From assembly GCA_965661355.1 (NCBI GenBank), contig CBFIDI010000003.1, positions 1 through 57,994 of the forward strand: a stretch of DNA of 57,994 nucleotides. Direction: 5' to 3'. Position numbers and translations under genes: made by a program. Source of the stretch: Rickettsiales bacterium (GTDB taxonomy: Bacteria > Pseudomonadota > Alphaproteobacteria > Rickettsiales > UBA1997). Under the pieces are notes generated by a model, which saw only the letters and a list, made by a program, of their open reading frames with translations, made no database searches and was not told the origin of the DNA. The first letter of the stretch is position 1. Each line of letters opens with the position of its first letter. This document shows, one piece after another, positions 1,162 through 39,145 of this stretch.

Positions 1162-4062
1162 TTATCTTGTCAAAGATGAAGATGCCGCCCCCACTTCAGG
1201 CAATTTTGGTTGCGACGGATTTACGCTTGGATCTTTTTCCTCATAAGATATATCTGGCAGCTTAAGACTGTTTTTGGCAGCGTTGTAAGCGGTGTTAGTT
1301 CTTTTTTTGGCATTTTTAGTTGTTAATAAAAATTTCGAGAAATAAATTATCCTGACTTTTTGTTTATCTTGATCTAAGAATTCTTTCTCAATTCCCAGAA
1401 TTCTTGGCTCTCCCTGTTTGATTTTTACTTCATACACTTTTCCATTTGTGGTCTTACCTATATATTTCACCCCATCGCTTCCAAACGCTTTGGCAAATTC
1501 GTTTTTTTGAAGGGCTTCTTTAAAATTCTTTTTAAAATCTCCGGCTTTATCAATTATTGATTCGGGGCAGAAGATTTTGTAAATCTCACCTTCGTGATTT
1601 ATTGATTGAAGGCTGTGTAAATCTACTTGAATACCATCTATTTTTAAGACATATTCTGTTTTCTGGGCCTGTGGTTTAGAAGTCTTTCTGGCGGAGCTTT
1701 GAAATAAATCTTTTTGCTGCCTTGCAATCAGGTTATTGTTGCTCTGTATAATTGTCTGTATTTCGAACTCGTTGATGTAAGGATCTAGTTTTTCGATTAA
1801 CCGCAATCTATCCTCTATGTCTAGTTCATCTTGTGGTTTATTTATATATTCAAGGTAGATTTTTAGTGGTATTTCTTTAGCGAGATCTGAATGTTCACGA
1901 ATTATGATTGCTATTTGTCGAATTGTATCTTCAGACCCATCATTGTCTGCTGATAAATATTGCAATTTAAATAACGAGTTTAAAAGACTTAGTTTTATTC
2001 TAGGGGTTTGTGTCTTTTTTATAGTTTTTTTGTGAATCTCTATGGAACTTGCAAGAGATTTATCTTTATAGCAATGTTGAGGACAGGCTTCGTTATATGT
2101 AAGATGGTTGCGAAAGCCAAATGCTGCCTGTAAATTACGAAAATCAATATCTTCTTGCGTTGGTCGATATTCCGAGATTCCCTTATCAAGATAAGACAAG
2201 AATACGCTTTTTGATAAATCTAAATTTTGGGTAAATGATATTGACGACAGGTAAAGATCTGGATACGCACCAGAAAGAAAATCTGGATTGATTGAAGATA
2301 ACTCTTCTTCGCAGACTTGATATTTTTTTTCTTGATTTTTTGTGAATAAGTTTTGTTTTGCAAAAAGCAATGCGAATTCTAGATTAATATCTTCCTTGAC
2401 AAATTTACTAAACCCTTCTTTTGTAAGAAGTTGGTAAATTACCAAAAATCTACTCAGTCGTAATTTTTCTTCTATTGGCGAAGACGCTTCTTTAGATAAT
2501 ATTTCGATTGCCAATTGCAAAAATTGTAATTTTTTCTCTTCATCCTCAAAATTGGCTAATACGGATCCAAATTTTTTTAAGGATTCGCTATTATTATTTA
2601 TTGCGTAATCTGTTAAAAATCCTATTATATTGTGATCGTTTTTTTCGCTTCCTGCGTTGATTGCATAATTGGCAAAAATTTCTGCCAATTCTTTTCTTTT
2701 CGATGATGTCACATCTCTTTGTTCTTGAATATATTGGGTTGCTTTGTAATAAAAAAGGCAATTATTTAAATGGCTTATCAACAATTTTAGTTCTTCTCGA
2801 CCACTTGCCTGATAACATTCTTCATTTTCTTTTGCAAGGTTAATGGCTAGTTCTATTGCTTTAAAAAAACCAGAAGTAATAATGGTGCCAATTTTATCAC
2901 CCACCGCTTCTTTTTCTCTTGAGGTTATGTCTATTACTAATTGAGATATGTTTAATACAGGATCATAATTTTCCTGCGGATTAAGCAAAAATATATTTTT
3001 TTCATTAAATTTATCAGAAAACAATTCCTTTAATTTATAAAAAACATGCAGAGTATTAATGAAATTTTTGGCGAACTGAATTTCTTGAGTAAGTTTTTCG
3101 TGGTCATATGGTTCGTTAGCGATAATTTTGAAAAATTTATCTTTAATGCTCAATAATAAAGCCTCTCGATGCTTAAAAAATATTTCAATTGTTGACTTGT
3201 AAATTTCCGCTATGAGATTTGCATTAATTTCATCAACTTTACTTTGATTTTGATGCACTTGACGCAGAAAGTCTTCAAATTTTGGCGTAAGTTCGAAAAG
3301 CATCTCCAGCTCTTTTTCATCGGCGTATTTATCACTGATGACGCTTATATCTTCTATTCCTTGATATATATCAAATTCCTTATTTGGCATTTTCTTTTCT
3401 TGATCTTCGGCGCGACCTTGATTAACTCTCTTCGATTTTTCTTTAAGATCAACAATTTCTGATGTTAGAAAAGTTAGCTTTCTCAAAATTTCGTCGATAT
3501 CAATTTCTTTCTGACCCCTTAGTTCTTGAGCTATTGAATTTATTTGGTAATAAAGCTCTTTATCGTCAACAAAGATATCATTTGGAAATTTCGCATTATA
3601 TTTCTCGTAAATATATTGTGCAAAAACTGAAGTCAGGCCACAATTGTCTGCATCCATTATGGCAATATCTTTTCCTTGTTCAATCTTGATATATTTATTT
3701 TCATTGCATGATATTACTGCATTGGGGAAGGTGTTTTTTAATATATCTTCAATTAATTCTTTGCGTTCTTGTGCGCCACTATTATGATATAAAGAATCGA
3801 AAATTGCATATTCAACACCCGATTCCGTTTGTGTTAAGTCTAGTAAAATAAAGTGACCACTATGTTCGACAATATAAGTGCCATATTCTTCGGCGCTTTC
3901 TTGTGCCTTTTTTATAACATTTGGCAAATATTCTTCAGGAATTAGATCAGTAGTAATTGAAGAATTGTGAAAATTTTTTTGAGAAAATTTTTGCATCAGA
4001 TTCGTTATCAAATCTATTCCAATCGACCCCTCTTGCGGTATTGGTTGAGATAAATTTAGCAT
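1162..4062 (-). CDS. 966-aa orphan, putative secreted effector (CE-clan/Ulp1-like N-terminus, helical core, RelE-like C-terminal region)
   Basis: Long ORF; GHFILL..IFDSL..DADNCG motifs; C-terminal KVYEVKIKQGEPRILG..IIYFSKF; PS-rich tail ending SLTR. Confidence 0.6.
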   Translation of the reverse strand: MLNLSQPIPQEGSIGIDLITNLMQKFSQKNFHNSSITTDLIPEEYLPNVIKKAQESAEEYGTYIVEHSGHFILLDLTQTESGVEYAIFDSLYHNSGAQERKELIEDILKNTFPNAVISCNENKYIKIEQGKDIAIMDADNCGLTSVFAQYIYEKYNAKFPNDIFVDDKELYYQINSIAQELRGQKEIDIDEILRKLTFLTSEIVDLKEKSKRVNQGRAEDQEKKMPNKEFDIYQGIEDISVISDKYADEKELEMLFELTPKFEDFLRQVHQNQSKVDEINANLIAEIYKSTIEIFFKHREALLLSIKDKFFKIIANEPYDHEKLTQEIQFAKNFINTLHVFYKLKELFSDKFNEKNIFLLNPQENYDPVLNISQLVIDITSREKEAVGDKIGTIITSGFFKAIELAINLAKENEECYQASGREELKLLISHLNNCLFYYKATQYIQEQRDVTSSKRKELAEIFANYAINAGSEKNDHNIIGFLTDYAINNNSESLKKFGSVLANFEDEEKKLQFLQLAIEILSKEASSPIEEKLRLSRFLVIYQLLTKEGFSKFVKEDINLEFALLFAKQNLFTKNQEKKYQVCEEELSSINPDFLSGAYPDLYLSSISFTQNLDLSKSVFLSYLDKGISEYRPTQEDIDFRNLQAAFGFRNHLTYNEACPQHCYKDKSLASSIEIHKKTIKKTQTPRIKLSLLNSLFKLQYLSADNDGSEDTIRQIAIIIREHSDLAKEIPLKIYLEYINKPQDELDIEDRLRLIEKLDPYINEFEIQTIIQSNNNLIARQQKDLFQSSARKTSKPQAQKTEYVLKIDGIQVDLHSLQSINHEGEIYKIFCPESIIDKAGDFKKNFKEALQKNEFAKAFGSDGVKYIGKTTNGKVYEVKIKQGEPRILGIEKEFLDQDKQKVRIIYFSKFLLTTKNAKKRTNTAYNAAKNSLKLPDISYEEKDPSVNPSQPKLPEVGAASSSLTR

Positions 4063-4096
4063 AACTTATTTACAAATTTGAGTTTATATTTGCGTG

Positions 4097-4125
4097 ATGA
4101 TAATATAGATAGAGGTAATTTGCAA
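4097..4125 (-). promoter_or_regulatory. Putative sigma70 promoter for the 966-aa gene
   Basis: TTGCAA (4125-4120), 17-bp spacer, TATCAT (4102-4097). Confidence 0.3.
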
Positions 4126-4252
4126 TAGGTGGCTTTGTTTCATAAGAAGACTATTGGTTGCAACTGCCTATGGTTGAAAAGCTTCGAAGATTTATAATAT
4201 TTCTATGGCGTTCAATTTATCTATATTAACCAATAGTCAAAACAAAAATTAA

Positions 4253-4513
4253 ATGCATGAATTTAATTTGGTTTATTTGCGCAGAAGGGTTTTTGCAATA
4301 TTTGGAGTTATTGGGGTATTTGGTTATTTGGTTTATTTATCCGGTTCTTTGTTCAGTCATTCCTATGCTTTCCCAATATTTATTGCGTTAATTGGTTTAG
4401 GAATTATTTTTCTGGGCATTAAATATCAAAAGAATAAGGCCGAGATTCACCTTGTAATTGAGAGTTGTTTTCCAGACTTTTTGTTGAAGTGGAGACCTGA
4501 CGAAAGAGCTTAA
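4253..4513 (+). pseudogene. Small membrane protein, probably a C-terminal remnant of a DUF2157-like protein
   Basis: Two TM helices RRVFAIFGVIGVFGYL...FPIFIALIGLGIIFLGIKYQK resemble the C-terminus of larger multi-TM proteins; no N-terminal part upstream. Confidence 0.45.
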
Positions 4514-4596
4514 GATTCACTAAGTCTTAATCCTTGAAGTTTAAAATATCAAGCTTTACAAAATACTTCATTAAATCACAAACCTAAAATTTACGC

Positions 4597-4624
4597 TAAA
4601 AAAGCCTTTTGAAGAGCTTTTTTA
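4597..4624. terminator. Probable bidirectional intrinsic terminator
   Basis: TAAAAAAGC-CTTTTGAAGA-GCTTTTTTA hairpin with A/T tails. Confidence 0.45.
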
Positions 4625-4865
4625 TATGATTCCTTAGAAATATTGTAAATCTCAAACTTTAAGAAGTGCAATAACTCGAAAAATGATGAGAAGTGATAAA
4701 TCTTCGCTTTACATCTCGGCTTTGGCGCAAAATATGAGGCAAAAAGATGTTGGCGTTATCATTTCAAGCTATGGCAAAATCCTCGAAAATTAAAGGACTA
4801 AAATTTTAAAAAGTTTTGAGTTAGAATAAGAGTGTTAATATTAAAAATGTAATGAAAATTATGAA

Positions 4866-5735
4866 ATGAATAAATTTATCAACAACATTAACGAGGCCTT
4901 CCCCCTGTGGAAGGAATTGGACGACGAAACTAAGATTTTAAGTTACATTGAGTTTGTTTTATATTTAGTTAAGCCCACAAGGTGGAATGTTAGACTGTCG
5001 AGATTAATTTCGTTAGATCAAGATAAACTTGCGAAAATTCAAAATGTAGCGCTAGAGTTACATAAAGGCCTTAATATTTGGAAAAGATTGTCTCAGGGGA
5101 CAGTAGAAAGTTATATAAATTTACCCAAGACTATTGATGATAGGGGCAAGGAAATTACAGAAAAAGATGAGGAGACTGGCAAAGAATTTAAGAGGCTAAA
5201 TAAGTTCAAGGGCAGGGATCTACTATACAACTCATTCAATATACACCATATAAGAATTGATGACACGCAGGGTAAGAAAATAAACCTGTTTGATGAAGAG
5301 GTGCATTTTGTGAAGCGTAAACAAAACGAGCTACTTTTTGCTATGTTTGACGATCGTTTCTCAACCGTGTATTTCTTGGATATCTTAAAGCATGATGATT
5401 TATACAAATATAGTAAGTTATTAAATATTATAAATAGTGAGGGGTTTCCCAGTCCCTATCAAGACTTTGGTTATGATGCAGTTGGTTTAAAGAATGGATT
5501 TACTGATAATGAATTCAAAAAGCTTCTTTTTAGTGGGGGGTCAATGATTTTTGAAGCAGGAGGGCGTCACGTTATTCCATTAAATATGACTACAGTATCT
5601 GGCTTTACCGATAAAGTGATTAATCATATATATGCCCCCATAAAAAGACAAGAATTTAATATTACCTTGCCTGCTGATTTTATATATCCAAATCAGATGT
5701 TTAGTGAATTTTATCAACTAAATTTTCAATCATGA
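4866..5735 (+). CDS. Hypothetical island cargo protein (289 aa)
   Basis: Intact ORF; ATGA overlap with the recombinase start; motif DLLYNSFNIHHIRI...FVKR...LLF...YFLDILKH. Confidence 0.75.
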   Translation: MNKFINNINEAFPLWKELDDETKILSYIEFVLYLVKPTRWNVRLSRLISLDQDKLAKIQNVALELHKGLNIWKRLSQGTVESYINLPKTIDDRGKEITEKDEETGKEFKRLNKFKGRDLLYNSFNIHHIRIDDTQGKKINLFDEEVHFVKRKQNELLFAMFDDRFSTVYFLDILKHDDLYKYSKLLNIINSEGFPSPYQDFGYDAVGLKNGFTDNEFKKLLFSGGSMIFEAGGRHVIPLNMTTVSGFTDKVINHIYAPIKRQEFNITLPADFIYPNQMFSEFYQLNFQS

Positions 5736-7243
5736 AAGCCATAATATTCGCCCGAGTATCAACCGCAGAACAAGAGCAAGAAGGTCATTCAATTGAAGCT
5801 CAAATCAACAAGCTTCGAGACTATTGCCATAAACAAAGCCTTGAAATCATCAAAGAATATGAAGTGGTCGAAAGCTCAACAAGGGGAGAGCGACCAGAAT
5901 TTCATAAAATGATTGATTTCGTTAATAGTCAAAAAGGCACAATCGCCCTAGTGTGCGATAAAGTTGATCGCTTGCAAAGAGGATTCACTGAATTACCAAT
6001 TCTTGATAAACTCCGCAAAGAAAACAAACTAATTCTTCATTTTCTTGACATAGGGAGGCTTGATAGCGAATCAAACAGTCAACAAATATCATTTTATCAA
6101 ATGTCGGTTGTTATGGCTAATGCTTACACTAATGCAATCTCTGACAATGTAAAAAGAAGTCTGCTTCACAAATTAAATAGTGGTGAATGTATAAGAATGG
6201 CTCCACTTGGTTATTTAAACATAAAAGACTCAAATGGCAAATCAGATGTCATAATTGACCAAGAACGAGCTTATTTAATTAAAGAAATGTTCGAAATGTA
6301 TGCAACTGGCGCATTCTCATTATCAGACCTCGCCAAATTCACCAAAGAAAAAAACCTAACCAACATTTTCCACAAAGGCGAATCAAAACCAATTGCCAAA
6401 AGCGTAATTTGCAATATCCTAAAAAACCCGTTTTATTATGGCCAACAATATGTCAAAAAAACCAACCAACTTTATCCACATAAATATCCGCCAATTATCT
6501 CAGAAGAAATTTTCAACGAGTGCCAAAGAATCAACTTACTTCGCTCACAGCAAAACAACCGAATCCAAGCAATTCAATCCTCAAAGAAAGAATTTGTTTT
6601 CAAAAGCCTAATTAAATGCGCTATAACAGGCCGCACAGTTTCATCAGACAGAAAAGAAGCCAAAACCAACAAAAACACTTATCTCATCACTTGGAACCCA
6701 AAAAACCCAAGCAAAAAACTCTATATCCCCGAAAATGATGTTTTAAAACAAGTTTCGCAAGTTTTTAAATCAATCGCTGTGCCAGAAGAAATGCTTGAAG
6801 AAATCACCAATCATTTGCAAAAATCGCATAAGGCAGAAAAGGAATTTCACAAACATAAAATTGAAGCTTTAAGAAAAGAGGAAGATTTAATCCAGACCAA
6901 AACCAATCGCTTACTTGATTTATATCTTGAAAAATCAATAACCCAAGAAGTTTACGAAAATAAAAGTGCAGAATTGAAAACAAGACTTGCCAAACTAAAA
7001 ACAGAAAAAACCCTTTATGATAAAGCTGATAATGACTTCAAAACCACGGTAATCACCGCATTTCGACTTGCCAATAAAGCAAATCAACTTTTCGAAAGTT
7101 CGAAAACCACCGAAAAACGCCAATTAATCAATTTCGTTTTTTCGAACCTAACTTTAAGAGGCACAAAGCTAGAATTTACGCTACGCAAACCCTTCGACAT
7201 GATGGTGAATTTGAAGAACTGTTCAGACTGGCTGGGACGGTAG
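5732..7243 (+). CDS. Large serine recombinase (integrase)
   Basis: ARVSTAEQ catalytic motif, DKVDRLQR, APLGY, ILKNPFYYG, PPIISEEIF, degenerate zinc ribbon (IKCAITG) and coiled coil. Confidence 0.93.
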   Translation: MKAIIFARVSTAEQEQEGHSIEAQINKLRDYCHKQSLEIIKEYEVVESSTRGERPEFHKMIDFVNSQKGTIALVCDKVDRLQRGFTELPILDKLRKENKLILHFLDIGRLDSESNSQQISFYQMSVVMANAYTNAISDNVKRSLLHKLNSGECIRMAPLGYLNIKDSNGKSDVIIDQERAYLIKEMFEMYATGAFSLSDLAKFTKEKNLTNIFHKGESKPIAKSVICNILKNPFYYGQQYVKKTNQLYPHKYPPIISEEIFNECQRINLLRSQQNNRIQAIQSSKKEFVFKSLIKCAITGRTVSSDRKEAKTNKNTYLITWNPKNPSKKLYIPENDVLKQVSQVFKSIAVPEEMLEEITNHLQKSHKAEKEFHKHKIEALRKEEDLIQTKTNRLLDLYLEKSITQEVYENKSAELKTRLAKLKTEKTLYDKADNDFKTTVITAFRLANKANQLFESSKTTEKRQLINFVFSNLTLRGTKLEFTLRKPFDMMVNLKNCSDWLGR

Positions 7244-7303
7244 GATTCGAACCTACGCATGGCGGAACCAAAATCCGCTGCCTTACCGCTTGGCCACGTC
7301 CCA
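7229..7303 (-). tRNA. tRNA-Gln (anticodon TTG), CCA encoded
   Basis: TGGGACG acceptor pairs with CGTCCCA-G-CCA; anticodon stem GCGGA/TCCGC; T-arm GTAGG-TTCGAAT-CCTAC. Confidence 0.97.
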
Positions 7304-7532: not shown

Positions 7533-7602
7533 ACACTAAGCCCCGCCTTTAAGTGTCAAATTATTTGGCCCTAAATTAGCGTATAAAAATGCGGCTTGAT
7601 AT
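7533..7602. repeat. Short copy of palindromic element family B
   Basis: ACTAAGCCCCGCCTTT...AAAAATGCGGCTTGATAT; internal TCAAATTATTTGGCCCTAAATTA matches TCAAATTATTTAGCCCTTAATTA in 25888-26051. Confidence 0.5.
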
Positions 7603-7861
7603 AATGTTTTTGCTTAAAATCTAGGCTAAAAAAGTAAAGTTTAATAGGTTAATTATGTCAATCATATTCTATAAAAACATAATTGATATTTAGAGTCATT
7701 AATAAAATCGCTTATTATAATTTTGTAAGCACTTTTGCAGAATCCAGACCAAGATCTTGCTGTTTCTGACAATTAACCCGGAGATTTTGAAGATTTTATA
7801 TAATTGACTTATTTGAAAAATACGATATAATTGCGTCGTTAGTAATTAAATTATTAAAAAG

Positions 7862-25801: not shown

Positions 25802-26124
25802 CGCCATTTTAACTTTACAATCGATAAGATTAAAATTTAGCCAATAAAATCATCGTCAAAATTTTTGTAAGATATCAGCTGGATATAATACCAAATCCCA
25901 TCTTCAAGCGCCAATTTATCCGTCCGTAATTTAATTACTAAATCCATCACCAAAAACCTAACATAGCGTTGCGACGGATAAGTTTTTGCTAATAAATTTA
26001 TTAATCAAATTATTTAGCCCTTAATTAATATTTAAAGATGAGACTTGGTATAATTTATTTTTTATAATTTTATCTTGGTAAAATTTGTTGATTCTTAATT
26101 GTTAGTTTTAAAGTTTAAATGGCG
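25802..26124. mobile_element. Palindromic element family A, interrupted by a nested family-B element
   Basis: Terminal inverted repeats CGCCATTTTAACTTTA / TAAAGTTTAAATGGCG; internal CATCGTCAAAA..ATATCAG is shared with 33831-33922. Confidence 0.65.
25888..26051. mobile_element. Palindromic element family B (MITE/RPE-like, 164 bp)
   Basis: 17-bp terminal inverted repeats ATACCAAATCCCATCTT / AAGATGAGACTTGGTAT (2 mismatches); inner inverted repeat TTATCCGTC / GACGGATAA. Confidence 0.75.
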
Positions 26125-38854: not shown

Positions 38855-38946
38855 GGAAGGGTGGCCGAGTGGTCGAAGGCGCGCGCTTGGAAAGCGCGTA
38901 TGGGGGTTAAACCTCATCAAGGGTTCGAATCCCTTTCCTTCCGCCA
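38855..38946 (+). tRNA. tRNA-Ser (anticodon GGA), CCA encoded
   Basis: GGAAGGG acceptor / TCCTTCC-G-CCA; CGCGC-TTGGAAA-GCGCG anticodon arm; long variable arm; GGGTTCGAATCCC. Confidence 0.97.
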
Positions 38947-39145
38947 GTTTAACTGGTTTTTTAAATAATTCTCCGCTCATATTTTCTAAACTTCATCAAG
39001 GTCAGAATATAATTAGAATAAATTAATGGGTAAAAAATATATGCTTTTGAGCAGAGACAAAAATTTAAGTTTTTACAAAAAAAGATAGAAAAAGACTATT
39101 TCATTGATCATATTATAAATTAATTATCAGGAAAAAGAGGCCTGA

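What the first reader, a model, noticed from the sequence alone, without database searches (positions are those of the whole stretch)
4150..7303. tRNA-targeting serine-integrase mini-island whose att site lies inside the integrase gene and would rewrite its C-terminus
Seen: the recombinase ORF runs 15 nt into the antisense 3' end of tRNA-Gln (...SDW-LGR-stop). Its Trp codon is the tRNA's CCA and its stop codon lies in the T-arm. No long tRNA-fragment duplication was found, but 4164-4166 has CTG followed by CCTATGGTTGAAAAGCTTCGAA. Joining the two CTGs, as excision would, gives an in-frame tail W-LPMVEKLRRFIIFLWRSIYLY-stop. TTCGAA starts 12 nt after the right CTG (the tRNA T-loop) and 17 nt after the left CTG. 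A mirrored TTTGAAG (7210-7216) sits symmetrically on the other arm of the inferred attP. Established: in large serine recombinases the zinc-domain binding motif lies 5 bp further out in attP than in attB, which is the offset seen here. Inference: this 3.07-kb element reads the conserved tRNA T-loop as attB, uses only a 2-3 bp core, and makes different integrase isoforms when integrated and excised. That could be a built-in directionality switch, since no RDF gene is evident. Caveats: the symmetry centres on one base rather than a dinucleotide, and the B arm shows no matching motif.
Basis: partly seen in the sequence, partly recalled or inferred. Interest (0 to 1): 0.85.

Follow-up and report, generated by a model that had tools for sequence, protein, structure and literature searches.

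The report
Serine integrase that ends inside tRNA-Gln
A small, partly decayed mobile island sits at a glutamine tRNA gene, and its integrase belongs to a widespread family whose recombination site lies inside the integrase gene, so that inserting into a tRNA swaps the enzyme's own tail.

Summary
A 503-aa large serine recombinase (5732-7243, +) runs 15 nt into the antisense 3' end of tRNA-Gln (7229-7303, -). Its Trp codon is the tRNA's CCA.

This is a family trait, not an accident:
- In 126 assessable related loci, 80 integrase ORFs end inside an antisense tRNA of 12 isoacceptor types.
- Other members, including one circular 8.1-kb contig (L188) and two 71%-identical database proteins, carry a conserved native tail instead: W-L-P-hydrophobic-hydrophobic-[DE]-x-[LFI]-R-T.
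- In six integrated elements that tail lies stranded 6-12.5 kb upstream. It follows an 8-18-nt identity with the tRNA end that stops at nucleotide 8 or 9 counted from the TGG.
- A T-loop-like TCGAA sits 5 bp further out on the element arm than in the tRNA.

It ranks 17 of 1.7 million genome 10-mers, and a DNA matrix expects 0.04 such sites in the upstream 5.7 kb. The host arm is wrong, however: CAA stands where TGG should, and TGGTTG lies 6 nt further left.

The island is decayed (a recombinase gene remnant, no replication gene). The proposed directionality switch is untested.

The parts
5732..7243 (+). Large serine recombinase gene, 503 aa, in its integrated (tail-swapped) form. It ends W-L-G-R-stop inside the tRNA.
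   Evidence: ORF. Pfam Resolvase and Recombinase. R8, S10, D78, R79 and R82 (numbering of L188, the first sequence) are invariant across 42 aligned family members, the window included. It is 71% identical to the G017 homolog.
7229..7303 (-). tRNA-Gln(UUG) with encoded CCA. This is the attR side: its last few 3' nucleotides would be supplied by the element.
   Evidence: ARAGORN. Rfam RF00005, 64.7 bits.
7232..7234 (+). CTG directly after the Trp codon. It is the only identity shared with the left end and the inferred crossover region.
   Evidence: In the family the identity between the two ends always stops at nucleotide 8 or 9 counted from the TGG.
7246..7251 (+). TTCGAA, the antisense T loop, on the tRNA arm. 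Its TCGAA starts at position 19 counted from the TGG.
   Evidence: The TCGAA-like word is at position 19 in 44 of 46 integrated family loci.
7210..7216 (+). TTTGAAG in the integrase coding arm, about 17-23 nt left of the CTG. It roughly mirrors the left-end CTTCGAAG.
   Evidence: It is seen, but no statistics were done on it and no clear equivalent was found in other members (read by eye).
4164..4229 (+). Probable element (P') arm and stranded native tail of the integrase: 21 codons, L-P-M-V-E-K-L-R-R-F..., then a stop at 4227-4229.
   Evidence: A protein matrix built from 15 database tails ranks it 17 of 1,696,174 genome 10-mers, with 0.057 expected in 5.7 kb. A DNA matrix from 13 family sites scores it 13.9 bits; 21 of 3.2 million positions score as high, or 0.037 expected. 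Against: a 20-aa HMM is not significant, and without the L-P the score is not significant.
4183..4188 (+). T-loop-like TTCGAA on the element arm. It is 17 nt after the left CTG, 5 bp further out than in the tRNA.
   Evidence: CGA sits at position 25 in G025, G038, G037C12 and G037C1, and at the same place in L188, L191 and L247.
4155..4160 (+). TGGTTG, possibly the displaced host tRNA-Gln end. It lies 6 nt left of where a clean junction would put it; 4161-4163 reads CAA.
   Evidence: It matches the 3' end TGGTTG of 6 of 8 same-genus tRNA-Gln genes. The chance of TGG[CT]TG within a 12-nt span is 0.005, a post hoc figure.
4253..4513 (+). 86-aa hydrophobic ORF of unknown role.
   Evidence: Only sub-threshold Pfam hits. 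No PHROG or PADLOC hit.
4593..4852 (+). Remnant of the 3' end of a tyrosine-recombinase-like gene. That gene directly precedes the integrase in L092, L064 and L065.
   Evidence: tblastx E 5e-4 and blastn 79.6% over 49 nt to L092. The L092 ORF matches Pfam Phage_integrase and PHROG integrase families.
4866..5735 (+). 289-aa cargo gene that overlaps the integrase start by 4 nt. It is a candidate anti-phage defence gene.
   Evidence: PADLOC PD-T4-7, E 1.5e-9, residues 117-251. No Pfam or PHROG hit.
1162..4062 (-). 966-aa ORF, probably host flank rather than cargo.
   Evidence: A homolog (26% identity over 521 aa) lies between the conserved neighbour gene and tRNA-Gln in G007. No Pfam or PADLOC family.

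Best explanation
The window holds an integrated, partly decayed member of a widespread family of small integrative elements. Intact members are 8-13 kb and carry a replication protein, a SpoVG-like gene and restriction or defence cargo. They are moved by a large serine recombinase whose attP straddles the last 20-40 codons of its own gene.

Shown:
- In the free circular form the ORF reads ...W-L-P-hydrophobic-hydrophobic-[DE]-x-[LFI]-R-T... and runs on for 20-40 residues.
- In the integrated form the gene keeps everything up to the Trp codon, which is the tRNA's CCA read backwards. It then runs into antisense tRNA until a chance stop, while the native tail is left at the other end of the element.
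- The two ends share only 8-18 nt, and that identity ends at nucleotide 8 or 9 counted from the TGG.

Inferred:
- The crossover lies within the first 4-6 nt after or around the CCA. In the window only CTG is shared between the two ends.
- The zinc-ribbon domain reads the universal T-loop word TTCGAA on the tRNA arm and a look-alike 5 bp further out on the element arm. This is the geometry known for serine integrases, and it would explain how the family has spread over 12 tRNA types.

In this window the element spans about 4164-7233 (3.07 kb). It carries a PD-T4-7-like defence gene and has lost most of its backbone. Its left junction is imperfect, so it is probably no longer mobile.

Whether the tail swap changes the enzyme's activity is unknown.
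For: Anatomy.

Family trait:
- The full-length homologs in relatives end inside tRNA-Arg, tRNA-Asn or tRNA-Asp, or (G017, L002) in a 47-nt tRNA-Asn 3' fragment; a C-terminal remnant in G016 ends in tRNA-Gln.
- Of 159 loci, 126 were assessable. In 80 the ORF end overlaps an antisense tRNA (Asn 38, Gln 13, Leu 8, Arg 4, and 8 further types).
- 5 of 5 full-length family members in viral contigs do the same.

Free form:
- L188 has a 45-nt terminal overlap, no tRNA, and a 522-aa ORF with the native tail.
- Gene order in L247 is a circular permutation of the integrated order.

Breakpoint:
- L235, L193 and L194 are 90-96% identical over the last 300 nt up to nucleotide 9. Beyond it they are 23-32% identical.

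Stranded tails:
- A matrix was trained only on 8 tRNA-free tails. Among 49 integrated loci scanned there were 41 forward candidates, 22 of them stop-free, and 7 positives in 6 loci.
- The reverse-strand control gave 22 candidates, 13 stop-free, and 0 positives.

Closest relatives:
- P0006 and P0007 (71% identity) carry the native tail.

5-bp offset. The rule itself is stated in bioRxiv 10.1101/2025.05.02.651858 (passage in section 4 read).

Window left end.

Synteny placing the 966-aa gene in the host.
Against: - The left junction is not clean. CAA stands where the host TGG should be, although 34 of 34 tRNA genes of this genome encode CCA.
- Identity between the two ends is 3 nt here, against 8-18 nt in the six other elements.
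- The window tail has R where nearly all members have T, and its distal half does not match. A 20-residue HMM ranks it 3222 of 77,600. A 36-nt matrix built from five sites scores it -20. Scores without the L-P are not significant.
- In 4 of 8 same-genus genomes the tRNA's neighbour is the ortholog of a gene on another contig (C15). The window starts at its contig's first base, so a larger element cannot be excluded.
- No attL could be found for the closest named relative L064 within 28 kb.
- No reads showing a circle or an empty site were available.
- No recombination has been assayed for any member.
Confidence: 0.75

Rival explanations
1. The element is larger than 3 kb. Its true left end would lie left of the window's first base, in unassembled DNA between contigs C15 and C3. 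The match at 4164 would then be chance, or an internal relic of an older element.
For: - The window starts at base 1 of its contig.
- In G003, G005, G008 and G001 (4 of 8 same-genus genomes) the gene next to the tRNA-Gln 3' end is the ortholog of C15:295-3390.
- The host arm at 4155-4163 is not the expected tRNA end.
- The site statistics are only about p 0.02-0.06.
Against: - G007 has a homolog of the 966-aa ORF directly beside that conserved neighbour, which makes 1162-4062 host DNA.
- The 207-aa ORF at 295-918 is a TonB C-terminal domain protein.
- No family cargo genes lie left of 4164.
- The 4164 site has the exact family spacing and the same CTG codon as the right end.
Confidence: 0.17
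2. This is a classic tRNA island: the crossover lies deep in the tRNA (anticodon or T loop), the element supplies the whole 3' half as tyrosine-integrase islands do, and the gene overlap has no consequence for the protein.
For: - In G017 the integrase is followed by a perfect 47-nt copy of the tRNA-Asn 3' part.
- Several loci have tRNA-like tails without a whole tRNA (13 of 126).
Against: - The G017 repeat belongs to a 7-kb tyrosine-integrase island inserted later.
- No displaced tRNA half exists in the window or its assembly, nor in five other elements within 12-20 kb.
- Identity between the two ends always stops at nucleotide 8 or 9.
Confidence: 0.03
3. The tail swap is real but neutral. attP simply sits at the very end of the gene, and both protein forms work alike. 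Directionality would come from a separate factor, or the integrated copies would be dead ends maintained by the element's own replication.
For: - Integrated tails are heterogeneous, from 2 to about 30 residues set only by the tRNA sequence.
- The AlphaFold model puts the breakpoint in a low-confidence linker (residues 484-493, pLDDT under 50). The tail is a separate helix, 490-511, with pLDDT about 50-70.
- Elements carry a replication protein.
Against: - The native tail is conserved across phyla (W-L-P...R-T).
- It stays open for 31-42 codons in the five stranded copies whose length was measured, which suggests selection for re-use after excision.
Confidence: 0.4

Closest known systems
Large serine integrases (phiC31, Bxb1, A118/LI type)
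   Same: - Resolvase catalytic domain plus Recombinase domain.
- A long helical insert and terminal beta hairpin in the model of a family member.
- Short att sites without long repeats.
- A recognition word 5 bp further from the centre on the element site than on the host site. This is the rule stated for phiC31 in bioRxiv 10.1101/2025.05.02.651858 (section 4 passage).
   Different: - The target is the 3' end of tRNA genes.
- attP lies inside the enzyme's own coding sequence, so the protein differs between the free and integrated states.
- Five literature searches found no description of this.
- From recall, not from a call: known model integrases have attP outside the coding sequence.
SSV-type 'suicidal' tyrosine integrases of archaea
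   Same: The att site lies within the integrase gene, so integration alters the gene (passages of PMC8371274 read).
   Different: - Those are tyrosine recombinases. The review describes them as found only in archaea.
- Here the enzyme is a bacterial serine recombinase, and only the last 20-40 residues are exchanged. The catalytic and DNA-binding domains stay intact.
Integration-dependent immunity of mycobacteriophage BPs
   Same: [quoted passage not shown]
   Different: - There the gene is the repressor, the recombinase is a different protein, and the lost tail is an ssrA-like degradation tag.
- Here the affected gene is the integrase itself, and the tail's role is unknown.
tRNA-targeting genomic islands with tyrosine integrases; tycheposons
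   Same: - Small replicative or integrative elements with defence cargo next to tRNA genes.
- 27 of 937 tycheposon-like elements were reported to carry a large serine recombinase (passage of bioRxiv 10.1101/2020.12.28.424599 read).
   Different: - Classic islands leave a displaced tRNA fragment of tens of nucleotides. None is found here.
- Whether the tycheposon serine recombinases belong to this family was not tested.

Membership tests
Large serine recombinase (serine integrase) | N-terminal resolvase-type catalytic domain with the catalytic serine | tested here: met
   Pfam PF00239, E 1.5e-20, residues 3-150. R8, S10, D78, R79 and R82 are invariant in 42 aligned members, the window included.
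Large serine recombinase (serine integrase) | Recombinase domain following the catalytic domain | tested here: met
   Pfam PF07508, E 2.9e-13, residues 178-267.
Large serine recombinase (serine integrase) | C-terminal zinc-ribbon domain with an embedded coiled coil | tested here: inconclusive
   The window protein has no PF13408 hit, though some relatives carry it. The AlphaFold model of L188 shows strands at 295-321, long helices at 340-418 and a terminal hairpin at 458-472. No structural comparison was run.
Large serine recombinase (serine integrase) | Short att sites with a 2-bp crossover and no long direct repeat | tested here: inconclusive
   Identity between element ends is 8-18 nt in six elements and 3 nt in the window. 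The crossover dinucleotide itself cannot be located from sequence.
Large serine recombinase (serine integrase) | Outer recognition motif 5 bp further from the centre in attP than in attB | tested here: met
   TCGAA is at position 19 in 44 of 46 tRNA arms. It is at position 24 on the element arm in the window, L188, L191 and L247; in G025, G038, G037C12 and G037C1 the CGAA core stands at position 25 behind TTG or TTA instead of TTC. That this motif is what the zinc ribbon binds is an inference.
SSV-type suicidal integrases | Tyrosine recombinase whose gene is split by its own att site | tested here: not met
   The enzyme is a serine recombinase. Only the C-terminal tail is exchanged.
Classic tRNA island (tyrosine integrase type) | Displaced tRNA 3' fragment of tens of nucleotides marking the far end | tested here: not met
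   None was found in the window, in the assembly, or in five related elements.
Integration-dependent regulation (BPs type) | attP inside the 3' end of a gene, so that free and integrated forms encode different C-termini | tested here: met
   L188 circle against integrated relatives, and L235 against L193. A functional consequence was not tested.
PD-T4-7 defence system (cargo gene 4866-5735) | Match to the PADLOC PD-T4-7 profiles | tested here: inconclusive
   E 1.5e-9, but only residues 117-251 match profile positions 112-239 of 337. No Pfam or PHROG support.

The most novel reading that the evidence does not exclude
The tail swap is itself the directionality control. The full-length enzyme is made only from the circle, and its C-terminal helix would license attP x tRNA integration. 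The truncated enzyme is made only from the prophage. It would either be locked, giving stable lysogeny without a repressor, or be competent for attL x attR excision without a separate directionality factor. The family would then be a self-contained two-state recombinase that reads the universal tRNA T loop. That would explain its spread over at least 12 tRNA types and many phyla.
Probability: 0.25. Interest if true: 0.9.

Novelty: new variant of a known kind. Interest (0 to 1): 0.72.

Why it matters
Serine integrases are prized genome-engineering tools because their sites are short and the reaction runs one way. How direction is set without a separate factor remains an active question.

This family offers three things:
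- It has over 500 confirmed relatives in each of two collections.
- Its attP is part of the gene, so the protein differs between the free and integrated states.
- Its host arm seems to use the universal tRNA T loop.

Together these make a natural test case for tail-dependent directionality, and for easy retargeting among tRNA genes present in every genome. The family also explains a class of small defence-carrying islands at tRNA genes that leave no tRNA-fragment repeat, and so escape repeat-based island finders.

For this window alone the result is modest: a decayed copy carrying a candidate defence gene.

Tried and rejected
- Reads. One run holds the stretch and is probably the source, kept only as contigs. 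Two further runs of the same sample and study hold next to none of its words. Laying X1 and X3 gave no joint in X1. X3 gave a single 20-nt-sided joint (2339 to 5708) at under 95% likeness, which I take to be another organism. No contig extends past the window's first bases. Nothing can be concluded on circles or empty sites.
- A supposed integrase C-terminal remnant at 4578-4646 (repeat D5; tblastn E 0.24). I dropped it in favour of the better-supported remnant of the upstream recombinase-like gene.
- A 36-nt matrix from five sites and a 20-residue HMM. Neither singled out the 4164 site.
- Looking for the far end of the closest named relative L064. Nothing was found within 28 kb, and its integrase ORF is broken at 353 aa.
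- A regex scan of L064 and L065 for the tail found nothing.
- Viral contigs held only integrated copies, 5 of 5 family members.
- My first regex, which gave a single genome-wide hit at 4164, had been tuned with window residues (M and R). I discount it.
- Sequence search of solved structures aligned only the catalytic domain.
- The 289-aa ORF is not related to the Mrr-like gene at the same position in L188.
- The promoter and terminator scan showed nothing above the shuffled expectation.
Full report
**What is in the window**

- tRNA-Gln(UUG) lies at 7229-7303 on the minus strand, with its CCA encoded.
- A 503-aa ORF (5732-7243, plus strand) converges on the tRNA and overlaps it by 15 nt. Its Trp codon TGG 7229-7231 is the CCA read backwards. 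Its stop TAG 7241-7243 lies in the T stem.
- The protein has the Resolvase and Recombinase domains of a large serine recombinase. It keeps the residues that are invariant in 42 aligned relatives.
- Upstream lie four features: a 289-aa ORF overlapping the integrase start by 4 nt (4866-5735), an 86-aa hydrophobic ORF (4253-4513), a 966-aa ORF on the other strand (1162-4062), and a TonB C-terminal domain ORF (295-918).
- No second copy of the tRNA-Gln 3' part exists in the window or in the 118-contig assembly.

**The overlap is a family trait**

- The same protein search in 41 related genomes gave matches in 16, the window's own included.
- The full-length homologs end antisense inside tRNA-Arg(CCU), tRNA-Arg(ACG), tRNA-Asn or tRNA-Asp; a C-terminal remnant in G016 ends in tRNA-Gln. 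Typical tails read W-[LR]-P-x-x-D-S-N-x-R-P-x-D-stop, where D-S-N is the T loop read backwards.
- Scans of two public collections each confirmed more than 500 relatives, 533 and 522. I examined the 159 best loci.
- Of those 159, 33 could not be assessed because the match was cut off or lay at a contig end. The other 126 split as follows:
  - 80 have the ORF end overlapping an antisense tRNA. The types are Asn 38, Gln 13, Leu 8, Arg 4, Pro 3, Val 3, Ala 3, Asp 3, Ser 2, Glu 1, His 1 and Tyr 1. In 58 the CCA's TGG is in frame as Trp.
  - 7 have no tRNA and a different, conserved tail.
  - 13 have a tRNA-like tail without a tRNA that ARAGORN calls.
  - 26 are other. About ten of these form a subgroup with a long W-F-[DE]-F-D-K-S-D tail.
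- All five full-length family members in viral contigs are integrated at tRNAs.
- Record titles place the family in Rickettsiales and other Alphaproteobacteria, Legionellales-like Gammaproteobacteria, Chlamydiota, Patescibacteria, Melainabacteria and others.

**The free form and the breakpoint**

- The tRNA-free members read W-L-P-I-I-E-L-I-R-T..., W-L-P-T-L-D-I-L-R-T..., W-L-P-L-L-D-A-F-R-T... and similar.
- One of them, L188, is an 8,135-nt contig whose first and last 45 nt are identical, so it is a circle. It has no tRNA and a 522-aa integrase ORF.
- L188 also carries an Mrr-like endonuclease, a Type ISP restriction-modification enzyme, a SpoVG-like protein and a replication protein.
- L247 has the same genes in an order that is a circular permutation of the integrated elements.
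- L235, L193 and L194 are 90-96% identical over the last 300 nt of the gene up to nucleotide 9, counting the TGG as 1-3. Beyond it they are only 23-32% identical. One continues into the native tail, one into tRNA-Asn, and one into unrelated DNA.
- The recombination breakpoint therefore lies inside the ORF, within two codons after the Trp.

**The stranded tails**

- In integrated elements I searched the DNA upstream of the integrase for the nine nucleotides TGG+6 of the tRNA end, allowing one mismatch. I scored what follows with a matrix trained only on the eight tRNA-free tails. The matrix used residues W+3 to W+12, which the search key does not fix.
- 49 loci were scanned. They gave 41 forward candidates, 22 of them stop-free. 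Seven scored positive, in six loci: L130, G025, G038, G037C12, G037C1 and L136.
- The positives lie 5.8-12.5 kb upstream of the tRNA end.
- The reverse strand gave 22 candidates, 13 stop-free. None scored positive, and the best was -5.5 (first seen).
- In the five sites read out in full (L136 was not), the identity with the tRNA end stops at nucleotide 8 or 9, and the frame stays open for 31-42 codons from the Trp.
- The other 43 loci gave no such site. Their elements may be longer than the flank fetched, may share fewer than eight nucleotides, or may be decayed.

**The 5-bp offset**

- On the tRNA arm a TCGAA-like word starts at position 19 in 44 of 46 integrated loci and at position 20 in the other two.
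- On the element arm the corresponding word has CGA at position 25, five further out. It takes the forms TTCGAAC, TT[AG]CGAAC or TTCAGAAC. This holds in G025, G038, G037C12, G037C1, L188, L191 and L247.
- A structural preprint on phiC31 integrase states that the zinc-ribbon domain sits 5 bp closer to the centre on attB than on attP (bioRxiv 10.1101/2025.05.02.651858, passage in section 4).
- If the T-loop word is what that domain reads, the centre falls at about nucleotides 2-6. That is at or next to the CTG in the window. This step is inference.

**The window's left end**

- The frame from 4164 reads L-P-M-V-E-K-L-R-R-F. Its CGA is at position 25 if CTG 4164-4166 is laid on CTG 7232-7234.
- Two 71%-identical database proteins carry W-L-P-V-I-D-E-F-R-T and W-L-P-N-L-D-E-F-R-T.
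- Independent models give the following:
  - A 9-residue matrix from 13 family tails ranks the site 31 of 1.80 million stop-free genome 9-mers, with 0.10 expected in the 5.7 kb upstream.
  - A 10-residue matrix from 15 database tails ranks it 17 of 1.70 million. That is 0.057 expected in 5.7 kb, or 0.017 in the 1.67 kb between the host gene and the integrase.
  - A DNA matrix over positions 4-33 from 13 sites scores it 13.9 bits. Twenty-one of 3.2 million positions score as high, or 0.037 expected.
- Against the site: most of the protein score comes from L-P, and without it the site is not significant. A 20-residue HMM and an early 36-nt matrix do not pick it out. The site has R where the family has T.

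**The unexplained host arm**

- A clean integration product should read host TGG-[CT]-TG and then the element arm. The window reads TGGTTG (4155-4160), then CAA, then CTG-CCT.
- All 34 tRNA genes of this genome encode CCA, so the CAA is not a tRNA end.
- TGGTTG is the 3' end of tRNA-Gln in 6 of 8 same-genus genomes. Finding TGG[CT]TG within 12 nt has a chance of 0.005, a post hoc figure.
- The simplest reading is a genuine left junction that has since gained six nucleotides. Such a change would disable it. I cannot show this.

**Decay and cargo**

- Window 4593-4852 matches the 3' end of a 349-aa tyrosine-recombinase-like gene. That gene directly precedes the integrase in L092, L064 and L065. 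Most of it has been lost here.
- There is no replication or SpoVG-like gene, unlike in the 8-13-kb relatives.
- The 289-aa ORF matches the PADLOC profiles of the PD-T4-7 defence system over part of its length.
- The short integrated tail (L-G-R) is not itself decay. Integrated tails vary from 2 to about 30 residues according to the tRNA. Among the 120 best database proteins, 111 are at least 470 aa long. Of these, 24 stop within five residues of the Trp, 45 read through the T loop, and 11 have the native tail by my pattern. A further 13 are other, about six of which look native by eye, and 18 escaped my anchor pattern.

**Extent of the island**

- In G003, G005, G008 and G001 the gene next to the tRNA-Gln 3' end is the ortholog of C15:295-3390 in this genome.
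- In G007 that gene is followed by a homolog of the 966-aa ORF, and then 4.8 kb of other genes before the tRNA.
- This makes the 966-aa ORF host DNA and confines the island to 4063-7228, in agreement with a left end near 4164.
- Because the window starts at its contig's first base, a larger element is not excluded.

**How it most likely works**

- Shown: the circle encodes the long form. Integration at a tRNA 3' end exchanges everything after about two codons past the Trp. The element supplies the last few nucleotides of the tRNA, and the native tail is kept, open, at the far end.
- Inferred: the crossover position, the reading of the T loop, and re-formation of the long form on excision.
- Unknown: what the tail does. 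In an AlphaFold model of the L188 protein (mean pLDDT 84) the breakpoint falls in a low-confidence linker (484-493). The tail is a helix at 490-511 with pLDDT about 50-70, following the terminal hairpin at 458-472.

**Comparison with what is known**

- The enzyme is a large serine recombinase by domains.
- Having the att site inside the integrase gene is known for SSV-type tyrosine integrases, which a review describes as exclusive to archaea (PMC8371274, two passages).
- An attP inside the 3' end of a gene, such that the prophage makes a shorter protein, is known for the repressor of mycobacteriophage BPs (PMC4557955, abstract).
- A preprint on tycheposons reports that 27 of 937 tRNA-associated elements carry a large serine recombinase (bioRxiv 10.1101/2020.12.28.424599, passages). 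Whether those belong to this family was not tested.
- Five full-text searches found no description of a serine integrase whose own 3' end is the attP and overlaps a tRNA. Subscription journals and the supplements of preprints were not searchable.

**Verdict**

- The element here is a decayed copy.
- The directionality-switch idea remains an open and testable hypothesis.

Noticed in passing
window 7556-7605: A stretch of about 48 nt just beyond the tRNA-Gln promoter side recurs at 79-86% identity on at least eight other contigs of the same genome, and at window 26005-26060. It is a dispersed short repeat of unknown kind.
   Followed up: no
window 38855-38960, and G000 contigs C4 and C28: Three tRNA-Ser loci share a 12-nt word right after a CCA end: directly after the gene in the window and on C4, and on C28 after a displaced tRNA fragment. 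The conserved stretch continues for about 20 nt more between C4 and C28. On C28 a 16-nt copy of the tRNA-Ser 3' end lies roughly 190 nt downstream of the gene. It looks like the scar of a small insertion.
   Followed up: partly
L041 (G002), next to its tRNA-Gln: There are three tandem copies of the 11-nt tRNA-Gln end, each followed by a unit of about 155 nt with internal inverted repeats. The leftmost copy is preceded by the codons for S-D-W, as at the end of the window's integrase. It looks like a stack of old integration scars.
   Followed up: partly
L049 (G037 contig C7) 19551-19892: Upstream of tRNA-Arg(CCU), two extra units of about 152 nt each carry a copy of the tRNA's 5' half plus 113 nt. 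The junctions fall in the anticodon loop within a perfect palindrome. This differs from the 3'-end junctions of the integrase family and is unexplained.
   Followed up: partly
L055 (G017 contig C22) 10217-17371: A 7-kb island with a tyrosine integrase sits between tRNA-Asn and a perfect 47-nt copy of its 3' part. That copy is the one the serine integrase gene overlaps. It is a tandem array of two different integrase types at one tRNA.
   Followed up: yes
L128, L131, L135, L228, L230, L232, L237, L239, L248 (and L129): A subgroup of the family has no adjacent tRNA. It has a long conserved tail beginning W-F-[DEK]-[FDN]-[DP]-[KT]-[SQ]-D, mostly from gut-type alphaproteobacterial records. It may use another kind of target.
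   Followed up: no
window 1162-4062 (-): A 966-aa ORF with no Pfam or PADLOC family. Its only detected relative among eight same-genus genomes is a 731-aa ORF in G007 (26% identity), at the equivalent place.
   Followed up: partly
window 7241-7243 and same-genus tRNA-Gln genes: The window's tRNA-Gln has a fully paired T stem (GTAGG/CCTAC). All eight same-genus genes have GGAAGG at that place, which leaves a U-U mismatch. The base that differs is the one that creates the integrase's TAG stop.
   Followed up: no
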